From positions 64,001-128,000 of IMG/VR virus record IMGVR_UViG_3300042934_001067: 64,000 nt of DNA; one strand, written 5' to 3'. A program made the translations under genes and the position numbers. This stretch comes from a virus. Positions 1,237 through 44,639 of the stretch are shown here, piece by piece. Within the stretch, counting starts at the first letter, position 1. Each line of letters opens with the position of its first letter. A model generated the notes under the pieces. That model saw nothing but the letters and a program-made list of their open reading frames with translations, made no database searches and had not been told where the DNA came from.

Positions 1237-1266
1237 AGCCTAATGCACATCGATATGCATGGGGGC
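1237..1266 (-). promoter_or_regulatory. Promoter/operator cassette copy 1
   Basis: Minus strand: ATGCATATCGATGTGCAT immediately followed by -10 TAGGCT. Confidence 0.8.
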
Positions 1267-3121: not shown

Positions 3122-3151
3122 ACCCTAATGCATATCGATGTGCATTGGAAG
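3122..3151 (-). promoter_or_regulatory. Promoter/operator cassette copy 2
   Basis: CTTCCA-ATGCACATCGATATGCAT-TAGGGT. Confidence 0.85.
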
Positions 3152-8101: not shown

Positions 8102-8131
8102 AAGCTAATGCACATCGATATGCATTGTCTA
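8102..8131 (-). promoter_or_regulatory. Promoter/operator cassette copy 3
   Basis: TAGACA-ATGCATATCGATGTGCAT-TAGCTT. Confidence 0.9.
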
Positions 8132-9417: not shown

Positions 9418-9447
9418 AGACTAATGCATATGGATGTGCATTGAAAG
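9418..9447 (-). promoter_or_regulatory. Promoter/operator cassette copy 4
   Basis: CTTTCA-ATGCACATCCATATGCAT-TAGTCT. Confidence 0.85.
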
Positions 9448-11293: not shown

Positions 11294-11323
11294 AACGTAA
11301 TGCATATCGATGTGCATTGGAAG
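11294..11323 (-). promoter_or_regulatory. Promoter/operator cassette copy 5
   Basis: CTTCCA-ATGCACATCGATATGCAT-TACGTT. Confidence 0.85.
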
Positions 11324-11788: not shown

Positions 11789-12793
11789 TCAGTGCAGGAC
11801 CAGGCTGCGCATTCCGTAGCCGCGCAGGGGATAGCGGTCCTCGAACAGCTCGGACGTGTGGTCGCATCCGGGGCAGGAGTCGCGGCCGGTGCCGTAGTCA
11901 TGGGCGCACCGCGTGCCGTACAGGGCGCGCGCCATGGCCTTGACGGCGACGTCTGCGCGGTGCCCGGTCCAGACGGCGGGGTCGGGGGGCGTGATCCATC
12001 CGGCGTCCGGGGCGGGCGTGACGGTGACGCGGTAACGGCCGTTGTCGTCGAGGTCGAGGCGGACGTCACGGCTGAAGTGGTGGAAGATCCACGCGACCGG
12101 CGGCCGGTACTCATCCCGGGGGCCGTCGGCCTCGATCACGGCCAGGCGGAACGGGGCTCCGGGGGTCTGGTCGCACAGGTCGGCCCAGACGGCGTCAGCG
12201 TGCCCCAGAGCGTTCACCGCGTCGTGGTCGAGGGGGAACGGCGTGCCAGGGGTGGTGTGTTCAGGCTCGGGCGCCCAGGACGGCCGGAACTCCGGCGCGA
12301 AGTAGATGCGGGCGCCGTCCTGCTCGGCGTAGCCGCCCAGCTTGCTGAACACCTGGAACGGGATGTTGACCCAGGTCGAACCCGTGTGGTTGGCGTCGTG
12401 GAACTGCTTGGGCGAGGTGTGCGGAAGGCGAACCCGCTCGATGTACGGGCGCCCCATGAGGGTGACGCCTGCGATCCAGCCGGACGCCTTACCCTGGGCT
12501 CGTCCGGCCAGGCTGAGGATGATTTTCAGGTACTCATCCGGGATGATCAGCCGCTCACGCTCGCGGAGCGCCTCGGCGGCGGCGCGGCCGTCCTCGGTCA
12601 GGAAGTAGTGTCCGCGCTCCTCGTCGGCCGTGGCCAGGCCCTGAGCGACCAGCCGCGCGCCGTCGGGGGCGTGCACGTTGCCGCTCTTGACCTCAAGGGC
12701 GGCCAGAAGGGCCGAGTCCTCCAGGGCGTCAGCGTCCGTGAACGGCGGCTCCATCTCGGCGTCGGTCGGCGCCTGAGCGTCGGTGGTGTCCAT
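11789..12793 (-). CDS. Hypothetical protein, 334 aa, wHTH-like module
   Basis: ORF track; codon bias. Confidence 0.75.
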   Translation of the reverse strand: MDTTDAQAPTDAEMEPPFTDADALEDSALLAALEVKSGNVHAPDGARLVAQGLATADEERGHYFLTEDGRAAAEALRERERLIIPDEYLKIILSLAGRAQGKASGWIAGVTLMGRPYIERVRLPHTSPKQFHDANHTGSTWVNIPFQVFSKLGGYAEQDGARIYFAPEFRPSWAPEPEHTTPGTPFPLDHDAVNALGHADAVWADLCDQTPGAPFRLAVIEADGPRDEYRPPVAWIFHHFSRDVRLDLDDNGRYRVTVTPAPDAGWITPPDPAVWTGHRADVAVKAMARALYGTRCAHDYGTGRDSCPGCDHTSELFEDRYPLRGYGMRSLVLH

Positions 12794-12827
12794 GCGGCGG
12801 GTCCCCTCGTGGTGGTGGGTCGGGTGG

Positions 12828-12897
12828 TGGAGAGCGCCCCGGGCCGGAGTCGAACCGGACCCGAACCGCCACGCCCCTCGCGGGGGCGGGCCGGGGC
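12828..12897 (-). ncRNA. tRNA-like structured element A
   Basis: GCCCCGG/CCGGGGC closing stem, internal hairpin, CCGG-TTCGACT-CCGG T-arm, trailer GCTCTCCA. Confidence 0.55.
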
Positions 12898-12904
12898 TGT
12901 GGTG

Positions 12905-13651
12905 CTACTCGGCGAGCAGCTCGGCGCGGACGTACGCCCAGTTGATCGCGTCGAAGCCTTCGGAGGCGTCGCGGCCGTCGGCGGCCTCGCTCAAACTGTC
13001 CCGAATCAGGGCGATGGTGTGGCGGTCGTCGGCCGAACGGTGGGCGCGGGGGCCGAAGACCACCGGGCGGAGGTGGTCGCGCAACTCGTCCTCACCGGCG
13101 CGCGCAGCGTTGCGGGCGTCCTCAATGAACGTTCCGTCGTTGGTGATCCACACGGCAACCGAGTGCGTGGCGAAGTTCTGGCCGTCGTACGGGCCGCCCT
13201 CGACGCGGCGCGGCGTAGCGGCCTGGTGGCGGTTGGCCAGGCGGAAGGCGGCGCGACGGACCTCAATGGGGAGGGACTCGTCGTTGATCTTGGCCCTGTT
13301 GGCCTCGACCTTTTCAGGGGTGGAGAGAATCGGCCGCTCGACGCACAGCAGGTCACCGCACCGGAGCAGGTCCGTGGAGCCGTCGGCGTAGAACACCTCG
13401 GCCGTGCCGGGGTCGGCGTCCTTGGCCCACTCAACGCGGATGATGTCCTTGAACTTGTCCAGGTGGCCGTGAGCGTCCTGGCCCCGTCCGCTCTCGGGCT
13501 TGCGGGCAGTACCGGCCGCAGTGCGGGTGATCATGTGGGGGATCCTGTCGGCGTCCACGCCCTTGAGGCCGTCGATACGCAGGTGTCCGGGGGCGGTGTT
13601 GCCGCTGGCGGCAACGGCCTCGGCGGGGGTCAGGTAGTCGAAGATGCTCAC
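12905..13651 (-). CDS. Hypothetical protein (VSIFDYLTP...)
   Basis: GTG 13651 after GAGGAG. Confidence 0.75.
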   Translation of the reverse strand: MSIFDYLTPAEAVAASGNTAPGHLRIDGLKGVDADRIPHMITRTAAGTARKPESGRGQDAHGHLDKFKDIIRVEWAKDADPGTAEVFYADGSTDLLRCGDLLCVERPILSTPEKVEANRAKINDESLPIEVRRAAFRLANRHQAATPRRVEGGPYDGQNFATHSVAVWITNDGTFIEDARNAARAGEDELRDHLRPVVFGPRAHRSADDRHTIALIRDSLSEAADGRDASEGFDAINWAYVRAELLAE

Positions 13652-13678
13652 GGGTGTTCTCCTCGGTAGGCGGGATGG

Positions 13679-13746
13679 TGGGGAGCGCCCCGGTCGGGCA
13701 TCGAACCCGGCTCGGGCCGCCCCGCCCGTGTGGGCGGGGCCGGGGC
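13679..13746 (-). ncRNA. tRNA-like structured element B
   Basis: Same architecture as element A: GCCCCGG/CCGGGGC, hairpin, CGGG-TTCGATG-CCCG, trailer GCTCCCCA. Confidence 0.55.
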
Positions 13747-13752
13747 CGTCTG

Positions 13753-14379
13753 TCAGTCGTCGTGGTCGGCCATGGCGTACTCGTCGAAGCGGTCGGCGCC
13801 GAACAGCGTGCGCAGGCCCTCGGCCATCTTCACGTTTTCGCTGTAGGTCTCGCGGGGCATCCAGTTGGCGGGGTCCGTGGCGAAGTCGCTCGCCCAGTCC
13901 TCGAAGTTGTCGGCGTAGTAGGCGGTCGCCGACTGGCGGACCAGCATGCCCACGGTCTCGACCAGCTCCGGCGCGTCGCCCTCCTCGCCGCCGTGCTTGA
14001 CGGTCTGGGTGTAGGTGCGGCCGTCGTAGGCAAGCGTGACGCGGTACTCGCGGTGCACCCAGCCCTCGGCGTCGGCGCCCATGGCGATCAGCTCGGAGGT
14101 AAGGGTGACACCGTCGCGGCGCAGCAGCAGGGACAGGGGGAGGTCGGAAACCTTGCCGCCGATCTGACCGTCGGCCGGGTACTGCTCGCGGGTCCACTCG
14201 TCGCAGGCGGCCTCGAACGCCTCCTGGGTGCGCTCGATGGCGGGTCCCTGGGTCCTGCCGTCGTCGCTGATGTGCCAGACGTTGACGACCGCGCCGGTGT
14301 TGGTGCTGATGTACTCGCCGCCGTCCCAGGTGAAGGTGAGGCCGGTGCGGTACTGCGGGGTGTAGATGAAGGCGGGCAT
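13753..14379 (-). CDS. Hypothetical protein
   Basis: SD GAGGAG; ORF track. Confidence 0.8.
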   Translation of the reverse strand: MPAFIYTPQYRTGLTFTWDGGEYISTNTGAVVNVWHISDDGRTQGPAIERTQEAFEAACDEWTREQYPADGQIGGKVSDLPLSLLLRRDGVTLTSELIAMGADAEGWVHREYRVTLAYDGRTYTQTVKHGGEEGDAPELVETVGMLVRQSATAYYADNFEDWASDFATDPANWMPRETYSENVKMAEGLRTLFGADRFDEYAMADHDD

Positions 14380-14421: not shown

Positions 14422-14451
14422 AATCTAATGCATATCGATGTGCATTGTCTA
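14422..14451 (-). promoter_or_regulatory. Promoter/operator cassette copy 6
   Basis: TAGACA-ATGCACATCGATATGCAT-TAGATT. Confidence 0.9.
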
Positions 14452-14514
14452 GCCGGTTCCGGGATCCCTTCCCGGACGGGCGCGCCCCAGCCGTCGGGGC
14501 GCGCCCAGGGTGGC

Positions 14515-15896: not shown

Positions 15897-15926
15897 AACC
15901 TAATGCACATGGATATGCATTGTCTA
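15897..15926 (-). promoter_or_regulatory. Promoter/operator cassette copy 7
   Basis: TAGACA-ATGCATATCCATGTGCAT-TAGGTT. Confidence 0.9.
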
Positions 15927-24601: not shown

Positions 24602-25753
24602 TCACGCTTCTTCGTCGGGCAGGAGGCGGCGCCACGTTCCATCGACGAGCGCCTGCTTCAGGGTGGGGATCAGGACTCCTGTCACCGGCCCGCGCTTCCT
24701 CAATTCGTCCCGCCGGATCTCTGTCGTCCCCGGCACGCAGAAGGGCTCGAACGCCGACATGAGGGCCTGGAGCTGCTCCGGGTGCCGCCGTGCGAGTTCT
24801 TCCCGGGAGTCACCCCGGGCCTCGTGCCAGGGGCGCTCGATCTCCTCACGTCGGGCGGAGACCGCCCGGGCCAGCTGCCGGGCGTGCATCATGCACTCCC
24901 GGTGCCGCTGGGCCAGTCCTCGGACGAACCTGCGCCGGTTGATGATCTGGCGGGCCTCTTCGGTACGCATGTCCTGCAGGCTGGAGACGTCCAGTCTGGG
25001 CAGGCTCACACTGAACGCCGGGGTTACGCCTGCCAGTTCGCAGTGCCTGTCCCGCAGGTGCTCCAGGGCGCCGTACCAGCGGCCCAGCAGCAGGGGATGC
25101 CTCAGCTCGGAGCACCGCTCCTCCTGCTGCGTCACATCCCTGGCCGCATGGTGCGTCAGGGCTGGCGTCGGCATGTCCAGGAAGGCCTGGACACCAGGCG
25201 TGACGGGCGCGTGGATCATTCCCCTGCGGACCGCGTCCTCAATCGATTCGAACCTGTCGGCGTAGCGGGCGTCGGCAAAGGGCATCTTGGCGGGCAGGCC
25301 CCGGCGTGCGATCTCGGCGGCGGCCAGCTCGTCGCGCTCCTCCTTGTAGTGCCGGGACAGGAGCGCGAGGCAAGCCAGTCTGGCGTCCTTCATGTGGGCG
25401 GGCAGCATGTCCCAGCCCTGCTTGCCGTCCCTCTCCCTCATCAGCCGGTGGACATGCCCCAGCCGCTGGGAGACGAGGCCGGAGTGCTTCACGGTGCTCT
25501 CCAGCCGCCGGTCGCGGGTGTAGTCCATCCGCTCCACGCTGGACTTCAGCTCTCCCGACGCCGCGTACAAGGCATCCGCCCACTGCTCCAGCCAGTCGTC
25601 GCTGCACAGAGCCTCGGTCACGGTGGGGTGCACCAGGCCGGTGGCCTCCGCCACGGCGGTGGAGGTGAGGACGGAGAAGTCGACTTCCCACCACCGCTCC
25701 AGCTCCTCGTACGGCATGGTGCGGATGACGGACATGGGCAGGTACGAAGGCAT
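24602..25753 (-). CDS. Hypothetical helical protein
   Basis: Start refined to ATG 25753; long ORF. Confidence 0.7.
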   Translation of the reverse strand: MPSYLPMSVIRTMPYEELERWWEVDFSVLTSTAVAEATGLVHPTVTEALCSDDWLEQWADALYAASGELKSSVERMDYTRDRRLESTVKHSGLVSQRLGHVHRLMRERDGKQGWDMLPAHMKDARLACLALLSRHYKEERDELAAAEIARRGLPAKMPFADARYADRFESIEDAVRRGMIHAPVTPGVQAFLDMPTPALTHHAARDVTQQEERCSELRHPLLLGRWYGALEHLRDRHCELAGVTPAFSVSLPRLDVSSLQDMRTEEARQIINRRRFVRGLAQRHRECMMHARQLARAVSARREEIERPWHEARGDSREELARRHPEQLQALMSAFEPFCVPGTTEIRRDELRKRGPVTGVLIPTLKQALVDGTWRRLLPDEEA

Positions 25754-38039: not shown

Positions 38040-38999
38040 TCAGGGGGCGACGGGGGCCTTCTTCAGGCGGGAGATGTAGCTGGGGTCGACGCCGAGGAGG
38101 GCGGCGAGGAAGACGTTGGTGACCTTGATGTCGCGGGCGTCGGCTTCCTGCTCGACGAGGGTGACGTAGTCGCGGGCCTGGTCGGAGGGGCGGCCCTCGG
38201 CGGGGGCAGGCGGCAGGGCGGCGAGGAGGTCCATCATCTCGTCCGAGGGGACCTTGTCGCGGGTGGACTGGCGGGTGAGGACGACGTCGAAGGCGGCCTG
38301 CTTCTGGGCGTCCTGCTGCCGGGCGGCGTCCTCGGGCTCGTCGGCCGGGGTGTCGAGGAGGACGCGCTGCCAGGCGAGGGGGACGTCCTTGCCCTTGTCC
38401 TGTCGCTTGGCGGCCTCGTGGCGGATGACGGTCTCCTGGGGGACCTCCCACAGCTTGGTGCGGCGCCAGACCTTGAAGGTGCTGAGGGGGGCGAGGAGCC
38501 ACCAGGTCAGGCGGATGGCCGGGAGGGGTGCGGGGCGCAGGCCGTCGGCGATCTGCTGGTCGCGCTTGGCGGCCTTGGCGTCGCGGAGGCGGCCTCGGAG
38601 CATCATTTCGTGGCCGAGGATCCAGACGGCCGGGGGCAGGGCGTGGAAGGCGACCGCCAGGGGGTCGGGCCAGGCGGCGCGGAGCTGGAGGGCGAAGGTG
38701 GCCAGGGAGAAGACGGCGACGATGGTGCGGATGATGCGGGCGGATCGGCCTGCCTTGACCTCGCGGACGGCCTTGCGGGAGTAGAGGAGGATGGCGAGGT
38801 CGGCCAGTGCGGCGACGACGATGGCCTGGTCCTCGGGGAAGCCGACGCGCAGGGCCTGGGTGTAGAGGGTCTGGTAGCCGACGTAGAAGCCGCCGAGGGC
38901 GAGGAGGTAGATGCCACCGTCGGTGAGGGTCTTGTCCCAGTCGGTGGCGGCGATTCTGGCCTTGGTCGTGTCGGTCCAGGTACGCTTGTCAGCAGTCAT
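38040..38999 (-). CDS. DUF2637-like membrane protein with C-terminal HTH
   Basis: 4 TM segments, HALPP motif, LAALLGVDPSYISRLK. Confidence 0.7.
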   Translation of the reverse strand: MTADKRTWTDTTKARIAATDWDKTLTDGGIYLLALGGFYVGYQTLYTQALRVGFPEDQAIVVAALADLAILLYSRKAVREVKAGRSARIIRTIVAVFSLATFALQLRAAWPDPLAVAFHALPPAVWILGHEMMLRGRLRDAKAAKRDQQIADGLRPAPLPAIRLTWWLLAPLSTFKVWRRTKLWEVPQETVIRHEAAKRQDKGKDVPLAWQRVLLDTPADEPEDAARQQDAQKQAAFDVVLTRQSTRDKVPSDEMMDLLAALPPAPAEGRPSDQARDYVTLVEQEADARDIKVTNVFLAALLGVDPSYISRLKKAPVAP

Positions 39000-39595: not shown

Positions 39596-39625
39596 ACCCT
39601 AATGCACATGGGTATGCATTGCAAG
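39596..39625 (-). promoter_or_regulatory. Promoter/operator cassette copy 8
   Basis: CTTGCA-ATGCATACCCATGTGCAT-TAGGGT. Confidence 0.8.
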
Positions 39626-40473: not shown

Positions 40474-42417
40474 TTACAGCGTGGCGGGTGTGCTGGGGCG
40501 GCCGAAGAGTCTGGCCGGGTGGCGGGTGCCGCCGATGAAGGTGACGACTTCCTCGGCGTCCCAGTGGTGCTCGTCCAGGCGCGGCATGAAGCGGTGGTGC
40601 TGGCCGACGTAGGCGAGGGTGAGGTGCGGAGTCCAGCCGTGTTCGGAGGGCAGGCGGTAGCCGTGGCCTTCGAGGTAGGCGGCGAGGCTGGAGTGCATCT
40701 GGGCGCCGCTGGGGATGTCGGCCGCCGCCCACAGGACGTGCTCGCCCTTGAAGGCGTTGTTGAAGGTGCCGATGCCGCCGATGCGGACGTGGACGGGCTT
40801 GTGGCGGGCGGCCCAGGCGCCGACGACCTGCGGGAGCAGCTGGAGCTGCTCGCGGGTGTAGTCGGTGGTGTTGCCGAGGTAGGCGAGGGTGACGTGGAGC
40901 TGGTCGGCGGGCTGGCCGTCCTCGCGGGCCAGCTGTTCAGCGACCTCGCGCGGCGGCACGAGCGCCACCATCACGCCCTCGTCGTGGAGGACGGCTGCCG
41001 CCTGCCGCTGCAGGAACTGCTGCTCGGCCGCCGTGGCCTGGACAGCGGCGGTGTGGTGGGTCGGCTCGGTCCACCCGTCGTCCGGCCCGTGGACGGCGGG
41101 GTGCTCGATGTGGGGTCCGTTGTAGCCCCACTCGTTGATGTCGTTGCCGTCGGTGTGGACGTGCTTGGCTGGGACGGTGGCCTTCAGTACGGGCCAGTCC
41201 TTGGAGGGGTCGTCCGAGTGCATGCCGTGTTCTAGGGCGTACTGGGAGGAGGTGGAGACCCAGTCGCCGGTGCGGATGCTGGTGGTGCCGTGGGGGACGG
41301 ACCGGTAGATCGTGACCGGCGCCTCGGGATTGCCCTTGGCGCGGTGGACGGCCTTCAGCGACTCCTCGTGCGGCTCTCCGATCTCGCCCCAGTCGGGGTT
41401 GTCCAGCCCTTCCTGGTTGAACGCTCCGCCGTCGCCGTTGGGGCGGGTGGGGTCGTGCAGTGGAGCGTGTTCGGGTCCAGGCGCGCGGTGCTGCATCCGG
41501 TAGTCGTCGTCCATGGACGCAGTCTCCTGCAGGCCAGTCTCGCGGAAGTAGTCTGTCAGGCTGGAGAGTCGGTTGATGGCCTTGTCGTAGTCGTGGAGGC
41601 CGACGTAGCCGATGTGGAGGGTGCCGTCGTCCAGGTCGCGGTGGATGACGCGATGGCCGCGCGAGGCCTTGGTGGAGTTCCAGCCCTTGAGCTTCAGGGT
41701 CAAGGCGTGAGTCTGCAGCCCCTCGTCGCCACGTTGCAGGGCATTGATGGTGCTGGCCACGCGCTTGCGGCTGTCGCCGTCGAGCTTGAGCAGCTCCTTC
41801 TTCGCGGACGGGTGGAAGGAGACCTGGCGCGGGCCTACAGGCCCAGCTCCTCCTTGATCGGCTCCCACGGCAGGTGCTGCTCCTGCGGGGTCTTCGCCCG
41901 CTCCTGCAGCTCCGTCTCCAGCTCCGGGCTGACGGCGTGGCCGTCCTCGTCCTGCGGTTCGGGTGCTGTCGGCTCCATTTCGCTCCTTCCGGAAGTGCGC
42001 CGTGGCGGTGTGCGAGGGCTTCCAGCCCTCGTGGTCGTCCAGGCCCTGTTCGTCGCTCAGGTAGTCGGGCGACCACCGAACTGGCACGTGTGAGAGGCCA
42101 GCCTTGGCGGCGGCCCAGTAGCGGTGCGTGCCGTCGTTGATGTAGGGGGTCCCGTCCTGCTTCCTCCACAGGTGGATGGGGTGCTCGATGCCGCGCTGGC
42201 GGACGTCGTGCACGAGCGCGTGCAGGTGCTCGGGCTCGTAGCGGTCGTTCGCCATGTCGTCCGCGCTCCACTGCGCGACGTGCCCCATGGTGATCGGATT
42301 GCCGTGCTGGTCGCTGCCGTACTCGGAGTGCATGCGCGCTATGTCGTCCACGTGCATCATCTCGTCCGGCTGATGGGCTGCCGTACGGAAGAACGCGGTG
42401 GCGCTGTGCTCGGTCAT
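40474..42417 (-). CDS. Polyvalent protein: ParB-like + RelE/ParE-like + ART-like + 2H phosphoesterase
   Basis: DGTHRYWAA; VSFHPSAKKELLKL...HRVIH; TIYRSV...WVSTS...EWGY; HVTL and HLTL. Confidence 0.8.
   Translation of the reverse strand: MTEHSATAFFRTAAHQPDEMMHVDDIARMHSEYGSDQHGNPITMGHVAQWSADDMANDRYEPEHLHALVHDVRQRGIEHPIHLWRKQDGTPYINDGTHRYWAAAKAGLSHVPVRWSPDYLSDEQGLDDHEGWKPSHTATAHFRKERNGADSTRTAGRGRPRRQPGAGDGAAGAGEDPAGAAPAVGADQGGAGPVGPRQVSFHPSAKKELLKLDGDSRKRVASTINALQRGDEGLQTHALTLKLKGWNSTKASRGHRVIHRDLDDGTLHIGYVGLHDYDKAINRLSSLTDYFRETGLQETASMDDDYRMQHRAPGPEHAPLHDPTRPNGDGGAFNQEGLDNPDWGEIGEPHEESLKAVHRAKGNPEAPVTIYRSVPHGTTSIRTGDWVSTSSQYALEHGMHSDDPSKDWPVLKATVPAKHVHTDGNDINEWGYNGPHIEHPAVHGPDDGWTEPTHHTAAVQATAAEQQFLQRQAAAVLHDEGVMVALVPPREVAEQLAREDGQPADQLHVTLAYLGNTTDYTREQLQLLPQVVGAWAARHKPVHVRIGGIGTFNNAFKGEHVLWAAADIPSGAQMHSSLAAYLEGHGYRLPSEHGWTPHLTLAYVGQHHRFMPRLDEHHWDAEEVVTFIGGTRHPARLFGRPSTPATL
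41835..41978 (-). CDS. Overprinted 47-aa antitoxin-like ORF
   Basis: AAGGAG-ATG; MEPTAPEPQDEDGHAVSPELETELQERAKTPQEQHLPWEPIKEELGL; ends just before the RelE domain. Confidence 0.65.
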   Translation of the reverse strand: MEPTAPEPQDEDGHAVSPELETELQERAKTPQEQHLPWEPIKEELGL

Positions 42418-44639
42418 GCGGCCTTCTCCTGGTCCGTGGCGGCGGCCACGCCCGCGTGGGCGTGCTTCCAGTCAATCAGCTGCTGCAACGGCTGGTCAGG
42501 GGCCTTGTCGAGGGCTTTCCAGACTGCGTTGCTGGGGTCGTAGAGGCCCGTTCCTTCGGGGCCGAATGCGCTGTGGCGGTCAGCGTGGAGGTAATCGTAC
42601 AACGCTGCACCTTCCCTTTCGCGCACTCCGTCAGGAAGTTCCCGGACGGCCCCGATCAGTTTCTGCAGCGCCTCGAACACGTCCCAGGTGGACTCGGGGA
42701 GTTTTTCGGGGCTGAAGTCGTCTGGCACTTCAACAGGTTTCACGGCCCATTCGTCGCGGGTGATGTCGTACGCGGCGTAGGGCTTTATGTCCCGTATGTC
42801 ATAGCTAGATGGGTTTACATACCAAGTATTCTCCCAGGGGCCGGTCTCCTTGCCGTCTGGGCCGGGGAGCATGCGGGCGTCGTCGTTGAGGCCGTGGCGC
42901 AGTTCGTCGGTGAGCTTCTCGTCCACGGCAGCCGGGGGCTCGCCGACGAAGGTGTCCACATGGTGGTTGAGGGCGTCGTGGTCGATGCCGATGAGGATGT
43001 CGAGGTCGCCGTTGCCGTAGAAGTGGCTGGCCTCGCTGCCTGCGAGGTAGACGCGGGCCCAGGACTGCCAGGAGTCACCGTACTTGGGCGCCCAGAAGCT
43101 GTTGAGCAGGCTGAGCAGGTGCTGGCGGACGATCGGGTGCATGCGCTCGTTCTCGTCGAACAGGCGCGGGTCCAGGCCCTTCTCCCCCGGCGCGAAGAAG
43201 TGGTCGCGGGGCAGCCAGTCGTGCTCGTGCTGGTAGGGCTCGTGGTTGTCGGGGACGGGGGTGGTGAAGGCCGTCCGCTCGCCGATCCCCTTCAGCCACG
43301 CCTGCGCGTCGTCGGAGAGCCGGTCGGAGTGCTGGAGGTCTGGGCGCTGCTCGCGCGCTCGTCGCAGCAGCTCGGTTGCGATACCTCGGCGCTGGTGTTC
43401 GTCCCTCACGTTCATGTTGCCGATGACGCCGTCGTCGCCCCAGTTGACGTACCCGGCCATGCTGCCCTCGGGGGTGCGCATGGTGACGGCCTTGGGTTCG
43501 GTGACCGTGTGGTAGGTGTGGCCGGTTTTGGAGGTGAAGTCGCCGTCAGCCCATTCCGGCCTCCCGGCCGAGGCGGTCTTTCCGTGGCCGCCGTCGGGAA
43601 GGCGGCCGTCGCAGGTGGCATCGTCGGGGCTGTTGGCGGGGACGGTGAGGCTGCCGTCGCAGTGGTAGCACTCGAAGCCGGTGTCGTGCTCGCCGGTGCC
43701 GCCACAGCAGGGGCAGGGCTTCGTGGCTGTGGCCATGCGGGGGTGGCCGGTGAGGTGGTATTCGGTGCGGGCGCTGTCGAGGTCGGCCTTGGGGATGGTC
43801 GGCTTGTCGACGGCGGTGAGTCCGATGTGACTGGGGTGGATGTCGGCGGGGACGTGTTCGCCTGCGGCGAGGGCGGGGTGGTCTTGGGGGACCTTTACGC
43901 CGGGACCGGGCAGGCCGTAGGCGCTGCGGCTGACGCGGAGGGGGACGTGGTCCATACCGAGGGCGCGGGCGGCGCGCAGGCGGTGGTTGCCCTCGCCCAG
44001 GTAGGCCTCGCCGCTGGCGGGGTGGTAGTGGAGCATGAGGGGTTCCATCTCGCCGCTGGCGGCAAGGTGGTGGCCGACTGCCTTGGCGTGCTCGGGGTCG
44101 GTTTCCTGGCTGGCATAGCGCTCGACTTCGTGGCGGGGGACCATTTCGACGTTGGTCCAGTTGCCGACGCGGGCGCGGATGTGGTGGCCGTGGGGGTTGA
44201 GGAGGCGGGAGGGGACGTCGTCGCCGTCCTGGACGGCCGCCGTGGCGGTGGCTGTGGCCATGGTGCGCCCCCGAGTGACCTTCTTGCCGTCGGTGTAGCC
44301 CGCCCACCACGCCTTGCCTGCGTCGGTGCGGTCGCCGTGGTCGATGGGGGTGGCGGGGTGGCGGCGCTGCATCTCGTCCATGAGGGCGGAGCCGACGCCC
44401 TTGCGCTGGTGGGCCTCTTCGGTGCCGAGGTGCTCGATGAGGATCTTGTCGGCTTTGCGGCGGGGGACGTGGTAGGTGAGGGTGCCCATGCGGTCGCCGG
44501 AGCTGGGCTCGACGGCGTGCAGGTGGATCTTGGTGGGGCGTTTGGTGCCACCGGTGTCGACCTCTTCGTGTTCGAAGTCGATCCCCTGGGGGTCGGCCGC
44601 CGCCTGGCGGAAGAAGCTGGTCGCGCTGATGTCCGTCAC
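42414..44639 (-). CDS. Polyvalent protein: GNAT + ParB-like + Zn finger + GNAT + Pol-beta nucleotidyltransferase
   Basis: HQRKGVGSAL; EGNHRLRAA; CPCCGGTG; HQRRGIATELL; LAGSEAS...GDLDILI. Confidence 0.8.
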   Translation of the reverse strand: MTDISATSFFRQAAADPQGIDFEHEEVDTGGTKRPTKIHLHAVEPSSGDRMGTLTYHVPRRKADKILIEHLGTEEAHQRKGVGSALMDEMQRRHPATPIDHGDRTDAGKAWWAGYTDGKKVTRGRTMATATATAAVQDGDDVPSRLLNPHGHHIRARVGNWTNVEMVPRHEVERYASQETDPEHAKAVGHHLAASGEMEPLMLHYHPASGEAYLGEGNHRLRAARALGMDHVPLRVSRSAYGLPGPGVKVPQDHPALAAGEHVPADIHPSHIGLTAVDKPTIPKADLDSARTEYHLTGHPRMATATKPCPCCGGTGEHDTGFECYHCDGSLTVPANSPDDATCDGRLPDGGHGKTASAGRPEWADGDFTSKTGHTYHTVTEPKAVTMRTPEGSMAGYVNWGDDGVIGNMNVRDEHQRRGIATELLRRAREQRPDLQHSDRLSDDAQAWLKGIGERTAFTTPVPDNHEPYQHEHDWLPRDHFFAPGEKGLDPRLFDENERMHPIVRQHLLSLLNSFWAPKYGDSWQSWARVYLAGSEASHFYGNGDLDILIGIDHDALNHHVDTFVGEPPAAVDEKLTDELRHGLNDDARMLPGPDGKETGPWENTWYVNPSSYDIRDIKPYAAYDITRDEWAVKPVEVPDDFSPEKLPESTWDVFEALQKLIGAVRELPDGVREREGAALYDYLHADRHSAFGPEGTGLYDPSNAVWKALDKAPDQPLQQLIDWKHAHAGVAAATDQEKAA

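What the first reader, a model, noticed from the sequence alone, without database searches (positions are those of the whole stretch)
12828..13746. Two intergenic tRNA-mimic structures bracketing one gene
Seen on the coding strand on both sides of gene 12905-13651: 7-bp closing stem GCCCCGG/CCGGGGC, one GC hairpin of different sequence in each copy, a T-arm (CCGG-TTCGACT-CCGG versus CGGG-TTCGATG-CCCG, compensatory change) and a GCTC(T/C)CCA trailer before the next RBS. They are about 70 nt and lack a full cloverleaf. Known: RNase P and RNase Z recognise the acceptor stem plus T-arm. Inference: mRNA punctuation or stability signals, released tRNA-like decoys, or cassette recombination boundaries.
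Basis: partly seen in the sequence, partly recalled or inferred. Interest (0 to 1): 0.72.

Follow-up and report, generated by a model that had tools for sequence, protein, structure and literature searches.

The report
Anticodon-less tRNA mimics between phage genes
Two gaps between genes of this Streptomyces phage hold small RNA folds that copy the top half of a tRNA; the same fold recurs in related phage-plasmids and conjugative plasmids and most likely marks where the host's tRNA-trimming enzymes cut the long message, but no RNA data have tested this.

Summary
Observation confirmed. Two minus-strand elements (12836-12897, 13687-13746) each form a 7-bp acceptor-like stem closing a GC hairpin, a short GG linker and a T-arm. 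They have no D- or anticodon arm and no ARAGORN or Rfam hit. Chance is about 0.02 per window. They are the only copies in a 156-kb myovirus-type phage and sit at inner junctions of one operon. I collected 47 distinct non-tRNA members in related ~150-kb phage-plasmids and in Streptomyces conjugative plasmids (pCQ4, pFP11, pSTS1). All lie on the coding strand and the T-stem covaries. All 21 phage-plasmid copies start 6-8 nt after a stop codon and carry C74 without CCA. That matches host tRNA genes (38/38 C74, 8 CCA), and S. coelicolor is reported to cut after C74. phiC31-family phages have a tRNA body with a ruined anticodon arm at an equivalent junction. Best reading (0.6): host RNase P/RNase Z processing signals, like plant mitochondrial t-elements. 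Cleavage is inferred, not shown. This scan noted similar elements earlier in at least eight other genomes. I found no paper describing them.

The parts
12836..12897 (-). Element E1: acceptor-like stem (12897-12891 with 12842-12836), GC hairpin with GCGA loop, linker ending CGGTTCGGG (12868-12860), T-arm (12859-12843, 49:65 mismatched)
   Evidence: CM R1 61.4 bits (training member)
13687..13746 (-). Element E2: acceptor-like stem (13746-13740 with 13693-13687), 8-bp GC hairpin (13739-13720), linker CGGCCCGAG (13719-13711), T-arm (13710-13694, 49:65 mismatched)
   Evidence: CM R1 64.7 bits (training member)
12794..12835 (-). E1 trailer: G73 (12835), C74 (12834), C/A-rich spacer and RBS of the 334-aa gene; predicted 3' cut between 12834 and 12833
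   Evidence: cut site inferred from PMC4681348
13652..13686 (-). E2 trailer: G73 (13686), C74 (13685), C/A-rich spacer and RBS GAGGAG of the 248-aa gene; predicted 3' cut between 13685 and 13684
   Evidence: cut site inferred
13753..14379 (-). Gene A, 208 aa, first gene of the operon (PHROG 4273, unknown function); its stop lies 6 nt before E2
12905..13651 (-). Gene B, 248 aa, no Pfam, PHROG or Atlas hit; mosaic (N-terminal 110-150 aa shared with relatives, C-terminus exchanged); its stop lies 7 nt before E1
11789..12793 (-). Gene C, 334 aa, unknown. Not followed by an element here, although its homologue in pRLB1-9.1 is
14422..14451 (-). Promoter-like site (TAGACA, 18 nt, TAGATT) with a palindromic operator-like spacer, repeated 9 times in the genome; the only such site upstream of genes A-C

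Best explanation
The elements are anticodon-less tRNA mimics that act in the transcript as substrates for the host's tRNA-processing enzymes. SHOWN: conserved acceptor-plus-T-arm fold, 12-nt distance from G1 to the T-loop, coding-strand orientation, position 6-8 nt after a stop codon inside an operon, and an R73-C74 trailer like host CCA-less tRNA genes. INFERRED: RNase P cuts at G1 (13747/13746 and 12898/12897), and the Streptomyces 3' enzyme (probably RNase Z) cuts after C74 (13685/13684 and 12834/12833). This would split the message into single-gene pieces, each downstream piece keeping a 33-40 nt leader with its RBS. If only RNase P cuts, the fold stays as a structured 5' cap on the downstream mRNA while the upstream piece is left with a 6-8 nt tail. 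Either way the relative stability and output of neighbouring genes is set without extra promoters.
For: Covariation: on 45 distinct sequences the T-stem pair 51:63 has 18 two-sided changes and none unpaired; whole-structure covariation 0.145 against 0.055 shuffled (0/500) and at most 0.041 when slid (related sequences inflate this). Unbiased check: of 48 non-tRNA pattern hits in which 50:64 and 51:63 were left as N, 41 pair at both, and the 7 others look like chance hits. T-loop U55, C56 and R57 in 47/47 and G1-C72 in 47/47. The stop-to-G1 distance is 6-8 nt in 21/21 phage-plasmid copies against 3.3% for random positions. C74 is present in 21/21 of these and 8/8 phiC31-family elements, all found without requiring it. 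Host tRNA genes examined have C74 in 38/38 but CCA in only 8. S. coelicolor lacks encoded CCA in 53 of 65 tRNAs, cuts CCA-encoding ones between the two Cs, and has RNase Z, SCO2547 (PMC4681348). Acceptor-plus-T-arm hairpins are RNase P substrates measured by the 12-bp ruler (PMC11143913), and B. subtilis RNase P processes CCA-less precursors in vivo (PMC1874595). A Streptomyces RNase P RNA shows a GGU at the place I read as L15. The middle is dispensable: one relative keeps only a 31-nt acceptor-plus-T minihelix (L005). No copy of the operon's promoter motif lies between 14451 and 11317, so genes B and C appear to need read-through.
Against: Pair 49:65 is mismatched in 12 of 21 phage-plasmid copies. 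N-1 is never U in those copies, and C75 is mostly absent, so they would be suboptimal RNase P substrates. Thermodynamic folding offers competing structures for several copies, including the E1 T-arm (pairing probability 0.40). The acceptor stem is almost invariant in sequence (partly forced by my patterns), so it shows little covariation within the family. In L001 and L002 one copy lies directly before a promoter-like site, where a processed 5' end is not needed. The junction after gene C lacks an element here.
Confidence: 0.6

Rival explanations
1. U-less intrinsic terminator or attenuator, or a passive barrier to 3'-5' exonucleases, that defines the 3' end of the upstream mRNA without being cut.
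For: GC-rich stems directly after stop codons; in L001 and L002 a copy precedes a promoter-like site. Streptomyces terminators often lack U tails (own knowledge).
Against: No U run in any of 47 trailers and no terminator call. Genes B and C have no promoter motif of their own. A plain hairpin needs no T-loop, 12-nt ruler or C74. Where this operon's promoter follows a gene, the phage uses a plain hairpin (about 14470-14498).
Confidence: 0.15
2. The purpose is the released small RNA: a CCA-tailed mini-tRNA that decoys tRNA-targeting defence enzymes or titrates host factors such as SmpB.
For: Release and CCA addition would follow from the same cuts, as shown for M. smegmatis YrlA (PMC4201824). 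The linker CGG-WYC-GAG resembles the host tmRNA D-loop segment CGGTTTCGAC.
Against: No anticodon loop to decoy anticodon nucleases; no G3.U70. One to three dispersed copies are locked to stop codons and RBSs rather than having their own promoter. They are also found in the transfer operons of conjugative plasmids.
Confidence: 0.08
3. A translation-coupled element: the terminating ribosome overlaps the stem 6-8 nt after the stop, so the fold affects termination, decay or re-initiation (REP-like) without tRNA enzymes.
For: Very tight 6-8 nt spacing in 21/21 copies. REP effects near stop codons are recalled from memory; I could not retrieve the paper.
Against: Spacing is looser (3-17 nt, or no stop within 25 nt in two) in the other 26 members, and 14-21 nt in three phiC31-family phages. 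It does not explain the T-loop or C74.
Confidence: 0.07
4. DNA-level recombination sites that bound exchangeable gene cassettes (attC-like or T4 PeSL-like).
For: Neighbouring genes differ between relatives; L006 has three 94-98% identical copies flanking short genes; L005 lost the middle of an element.
Against: Homology blocks run through elements (L002, L005, L008, L015), and breakpoints fall inside genes (about 13220, 13305-13329, 14116-14145) or at start codons, not at a fixed base. In most genomes a copy is closer to the same-slot copy of another genome than to its neighbours. The T-loop and discriminator features are RNA signatures. Occasional homologous recombination between copies remains plausible as a side effect.
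Confidence: 0.07
5. Decayed tRNA genes or integration scars with no current function.
For: The acceptor stem matches host tRNA-Leu(CAA), and the T-arms resemble host tRNA-Arg and tRNA-Phe.
Against: Compensatory changes, a fixed position and retention across unrelated replicons indicate selection; a scar would not keep the 5' acceptor strand while replacing the middle.
Confidence: 0.03

Closest known systems
t-elements of plant mitochondria (Forner et al. 2007, PMC1920247)
   Same: Non-coding tRNA-like folds with a GGTTCRANYCC T-arm inside polycistronic transcripts, proposed or shown to direct RNase P and RNase Z cuts that make mRNA 5' and 3' ends.
   Different: Here in a bacterial virus and plasmids, 31-68 nt, without D- and anticodon arms, repeated at stop-codon junctions; RNA ends not mapped.
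tRNA-like domain of bacterial Y RNA YrlA (PMC4201824)
   Same: Non-decoding tRNA mimic in actinobacteria and phages; the M. smegmatis RNA with a 7-bp acceptor stem is cut by RNase P and CCA-tailed.
   Different: No Ro60/TROVE gene in this genome, no Rfam match, embedded in mRNA.
tmRNA tRNA-like domain, including the TLD-only RNA of mycobacteriophage DS6A (PMC4131195)
   Same: Acceptor plus T-arm without an anticodon arm; the GG linker resembles the host tmRNA D-loop.
   Different: C3-G70 instead of G3.U70, no encoded CCA, no tag ORF; the hairpin precedes the D-loop-like segment instead of following it.
Known non-tRNA RNase P substrates of phages (M3 RNA, C4 antisense RNA, T4 gene 32 mRNA; PMC11143913)
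   Same: Phage RNAs cut by host RNase P.
   Different: Those are single RNAs, not a repeated intergenic T-arm module.
Intergenic tRNA-like sequence of phiC31-family phages between gp13 and gp14 (unannotated in the records viewed except Lilbooboo, where it is called tRNA-Gly)
   Same: Same kind of junction, similar leader (TAGCACCACG in Euratis and L003), acceptor G-Y-Y-C-C-S-G, T-arm GCSGG/CCSGY, AC(T/G)C trailer, then a C/A-rich spacer and RBS.
   Different: Keeps a real D-arm and scores as Rfam tRNA at 49-56 bits; its anticodon arm is irregular and unconserved. Homology to E1/E2 is inferred, not shown.

Membership tests
Canonical tRNA gene | Cloverleaf with D-arm and 7-nt anticodon loop | tested here: not met
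   ARAGORN 0 genes, Rfam 0; no D-arm start in any of 47 members
t-element (works-like class) | T-arm motif plus acceptor-like stem in a non-tRNA, intergenic position | tested here: met
t-element (works-like class) | mRNA ends coincide with the element's ends | not testable with these tools
RNase P substrate | G1-C72, 7+5 coaxial ruler, T-loop | tested here: met
   47/47 G1-C72 and 7+5 spacing; 49:65 mismatched in 12/21 phage-plasmid copies
RNase P substrate | 3' RCCA pairing with the L15 GGU | tested here: inconclusive
   R73-C74 kept, C75 mostly not; same as most host tRNA genes
RNase P substrate | Actual cleavage at G1 | not testable with these tools
   needs an in-vitro assay or RNA end mapping
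tmRNA / TLD | G3.U70 alanine identity, encoded CCA, tag reading frame | tested here: not met
   C3-G70 in 47/47; no tmRNA call
Bacterial Y RNA | Adjacent Ro60/Rsr gene | tested here: not met
   no PF05731 match in G000, control rings in 2 of 14 genomes
Canonical intrinsic terminator | U tract after the hairpin | tested here: not met
   longest T run is 2 or less in 47 trailers; scan negative. U-less termination was not testable
Site-specific cassette recombination site | Breakpoints at a fixed position inside the repeat | tested here: not met
   (11 loci, small sample)

The most novel reading that the evidence does not exclude
Bacterial mobile elements (phages, phage-plasmids, conjugative plasmids) have domesticated tRNA genes into anticodon-less processing signals tuned to the host's tRNA maturation rules (C74 without CCA in Streptomyces). 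They use these to cut operon mRNAs into single-gene units, a bacterial counterpart of mitochondrial tRNA punctuation. A graded series is visible from the phiC31 pseudo-tRNA to a bare 31-nt minihelix.
Probability: 0.5. Interest if true: 0.78.

Novelty: new variant of a known kind. Interest (0 to 1): 0.62.

Why it matters
If true, it adds a host-ribozyme-dependent layer of gene regulation to phages and conjugative plasmids and gives RNase P a recurring class of natural mRNA substrates, a role that the review PMC11143913 describes as still at an early stage. It would also explain some odd or mis-annotated phage 'tRNAs'. The question is directly testable: a related element lies in the model phage phiC31 and family members lie in plasmids of cultured strains (pSTS1, pCQ4, pFP11, pRLB1-9.1). 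The modules could also serve as portable mRNA-processing parts for Streptomyces.

Tried and rejected
ARAGORN and Rfam: no hit. Lowering the ARAGORN threshold to 85% calls both elements but also 140 other places, so it is uninformative. An HDV/theta ribozyme was considered and dropped by inspection: no P4, J4/2 or conserved P2 partner across homologues. An 8/4 acceptor/T arrangement does not fit, because the extra pair would be C.C in E1. BLAST of the region against cultured phages found no close relative. The CM search in 151 Streptomyces genomes scored only 33 candidates each, so it is not a census. PMC7738537 has no supplement held and mapped only the chromosome. Three papers that I tried by recalled PMC id (RNase Z and CCA; phiC31 terminators; phiC31 genome) were not held, so I could not check whether older phiC31 work mentions the gp13-gp14 structure. 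Ten literature searches found no description of such elements in phages or plasmids. Four longer hits (L009, L073, L078, L085) were left out as probable atypical tRNAs. Gene B gave no Pfam, PHROG or Atlas hit. The Terminase_6N family was not found in the genome; head and sheath genes were.

Full report
Setting. The window is positions 64001-128000 of a 156,276-nt virus record rated complete. It encodes a major head protein, tail sheath, DNA polymerase III alpha and RecA. Relatives of the bracketed gene lie on 150-185 kb Streptomyces contigs, one deposited as circular plasmid pRLB1-9.1. A Streptomyces myovirus-type phage-plasmid is therefore likely (inference). The finding lies in a leftward region of unknown, mosaic genes in which a promoter-like motif with a palindromic spacer is repeated (nine copies in the genome).

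Observation. Both elements are present on the coding strand: E2 (13746-13687) between gene A and gene B, and E1 (12897-12836) between gene B and gene C. Each has a 7-bp stem GCCCCGG/CCGGGGC, a GC hairpin directly after the 5' strand, a short linker with GG, a T-arm with a 7-nt TTCGA loop whose outer pair is mismatched, then G and C. They start 6 and 7 nt after the upstream stop and end 35 and 42 nt before the next start. ARAGORN and Rfam find nothing. Markov-simulated windows give 0.017 such structures on average. A covariance model finds only these two in the genome; the next hits are at 21 bits or less.

Family. Loci found through the gene B protein carry 1-3 copies each (L001-L003, L005, L006; the L004 replicon has two just outside that locus). 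Pattern, BLAST and model searches brought the set to 47 distinct non-tRNA members. Subtype 1 (21 copies, large phage-plasmids) has a TTCRA loop, a large hairpin and the linker YGG-NYC-GRG. Subtype 2 mostly has an ATC loop, a small covarying hairpin NNC-GYGAN-GNN and an optional large hairpin. It occurs in chromosomal loci that look like integrated elements and in the GntR-adjacent transfer operons of pCQ4, pFP11, pSTS1 and a plasmid of strain NBC_01005. A few members come from unrelated phage contigs (L007, L013). L005 has lost the whole middle and keeps a 31-nt acceptor-plus-T minihelix at the same junction. T-stem pair 51:63 occurs as C-G, G-C, A-U, U-A and U-G and is never unpaired; the structure beats all shuffles and slides, with the caveat of relatedness. 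Among pattern hits where these positions were free, 41 of 48 pair. The acceptor stem varies mostly by G.U, partly because my patterns fixed it.

A host-specific signature. All 21 subtype-1 copies, found without any trailer requirement, have a purine at 73 and C at 74 but not CCA. All 38 host tRNA genes that I examined in one Streptomyces genome have C74, and only 8 encode CCA. Romero et al. (PMC4681348) report that S. coelicolor lacks CCA in 53 of 65 tRNA genes, cuts most CCA-encoding precursors between the two Cs, and has RNase Z. The elements thus end as host pre-tRNAs do. RNase P cleaves acceptor-plus-T-arm model hairpins using the 12-bp distance from the T-loop (PMC11143913) and handles CCA-less precursors in vivo in B. 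subtilis (PMC1874595).

A possible intermediate. phiC31 and seven relatives examined carry, between gp13 and gp14 or their counterparts, a tRNA body with a true D-arm, an irregular and unconserved anticodon arm, a similar acceptor with compensatory changes at 2:71, 3:70 and 6:67, similar T-arms, an AC(T/G)C trailer and, in five of eight, a 6-9 nt leader after the stop. They score as Rfam tRNA and are unannotated except for one tRNA-Gly call. This suggests descent from a tRNA with stepwise loss of the decoding half. The homology is inferred.

Mechanism. The promoter-like site at 14451 heads genes A, B, C and two short ORFs, with no further copy until 11317, so the elements appear to lie inside one transcript. 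I infer cuts at G1 and after C74 that yield single-gene messages with 33- and 40-nt leaders, or a structured 5' cap if only RNase P acts (confidence 0.6). Against it: no RNA data, imperfect RNase P determinants and competing folds. A terminator or passive barrier (0.15) does not explain the T-loop, ruler or C74 and would cut off promoterless genes. Recombination boundaries (0.07) are disfavoured because breakpoints fall inside genes or at start codons and copies are mostly inherited by slot. Released decoys (0.08) and ribosome-coupled effects (0.07) remain open.

Comparison and novelty. The elements work like plant mitochondrial t-elements (PMC1920247), but the defining RNA-end test is missing. 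They are not tRNA, tmRNA or Y RNA genes. I found no paper on such elements in phages or plasmids. Earlier unchecked notes of this scan describe similar minihelices in at least eight other genomes. They gave me the t-element and DS6A leads and are not independent evidence. Verdict: real, conserved, apparently undescribed; a new variant of a known kind; interest 0.62.

Noticed in passing
window 1243-1260, 3128-3145, 8108-8125, 9424-9441, 11300-11317, 14428-14445, 15903-15920, 39602-39619; G000 58516: Nine copies of a promoter-like site whose spacer is a palindrome (ATGCA-Y-ATSSAT-R-TGCA), in front of leftward genes; probably a repressor-controlled regulon. L001 and L002 have a similar -35 with a different palindrome (GCAAC...GTTGC).
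   Followed up: partly
L126:11425-11512 (phiC31 NC_001978.3, about 31424-31511): Unannotated tRNA-like sequence with an irregular anticodon arm between gp13 and gp14, conserved in phiBT1, Sebastisaurus, RemusLoopin, Heather, Samora, Euratis and Lilbooboo; Vash also matches by BLAST.
   Followed up: yes
L092-L121 (G003 tRNA genes): All 38 Streptomyces tRNA genes examined encode C74, although only 8 encode CCA.
   Followed up: partly
L005:5067-5097: Natural 31-nt minihelix variant, probably a deletion between short CCGG repeats.
   Followed up: partly
window 12905-14379 versus L002:4001-4732 and L008: Domain-level shuffling: the N-terminus of gene B is fused to the C-terminus of gene A in pRLB1-9.1, and a 30-aa piece of B ends an otherwise different gene in L008.
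   Followed up: partly
window 40474-44639: Two large leftward genes combine ParB-N with a 2H phosphoesterase (LigT-like) domain, and carry GNAT-like segments.
   Followed up: no
window 31612-32532: JmjC-domain oxygenase gene in the phage.
   Followed up: no
window 38040-38999: DUF2637 protein, a family also seen in the transfer operons of Streptomyces conjugative plasmids, consistent with a phage-plasmid.
   Followed up: no
L073, L078, L085 and L009: 68-76 nt tRNA-like sequences missed by ARAGORN with an unusual D-arm region; three share a CTAAG/CCAAG/CGAAG loop. Possibly atypical tRNAs.
   Followed up: no
L007:648-2015 (minus strand): An unrelated phage contig has three acceptor-plus-T-arm elements with different acceptor sequences, each followed within about 10 nt by GTGAAAGGAG and a start codon.
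   Followed up: partly
L089, G1 at 25664 (S. venezuelae NRRL B-65442 plasmid): A tRNA-like sequence absent from the PLSDB feature table.
   Followed up: no
NZ_CP108706.1 (L061): The 32-kb plasmid record is a tandem duplication of a 16-kb unit, so its six hits are three elements.
   Followed up: yes
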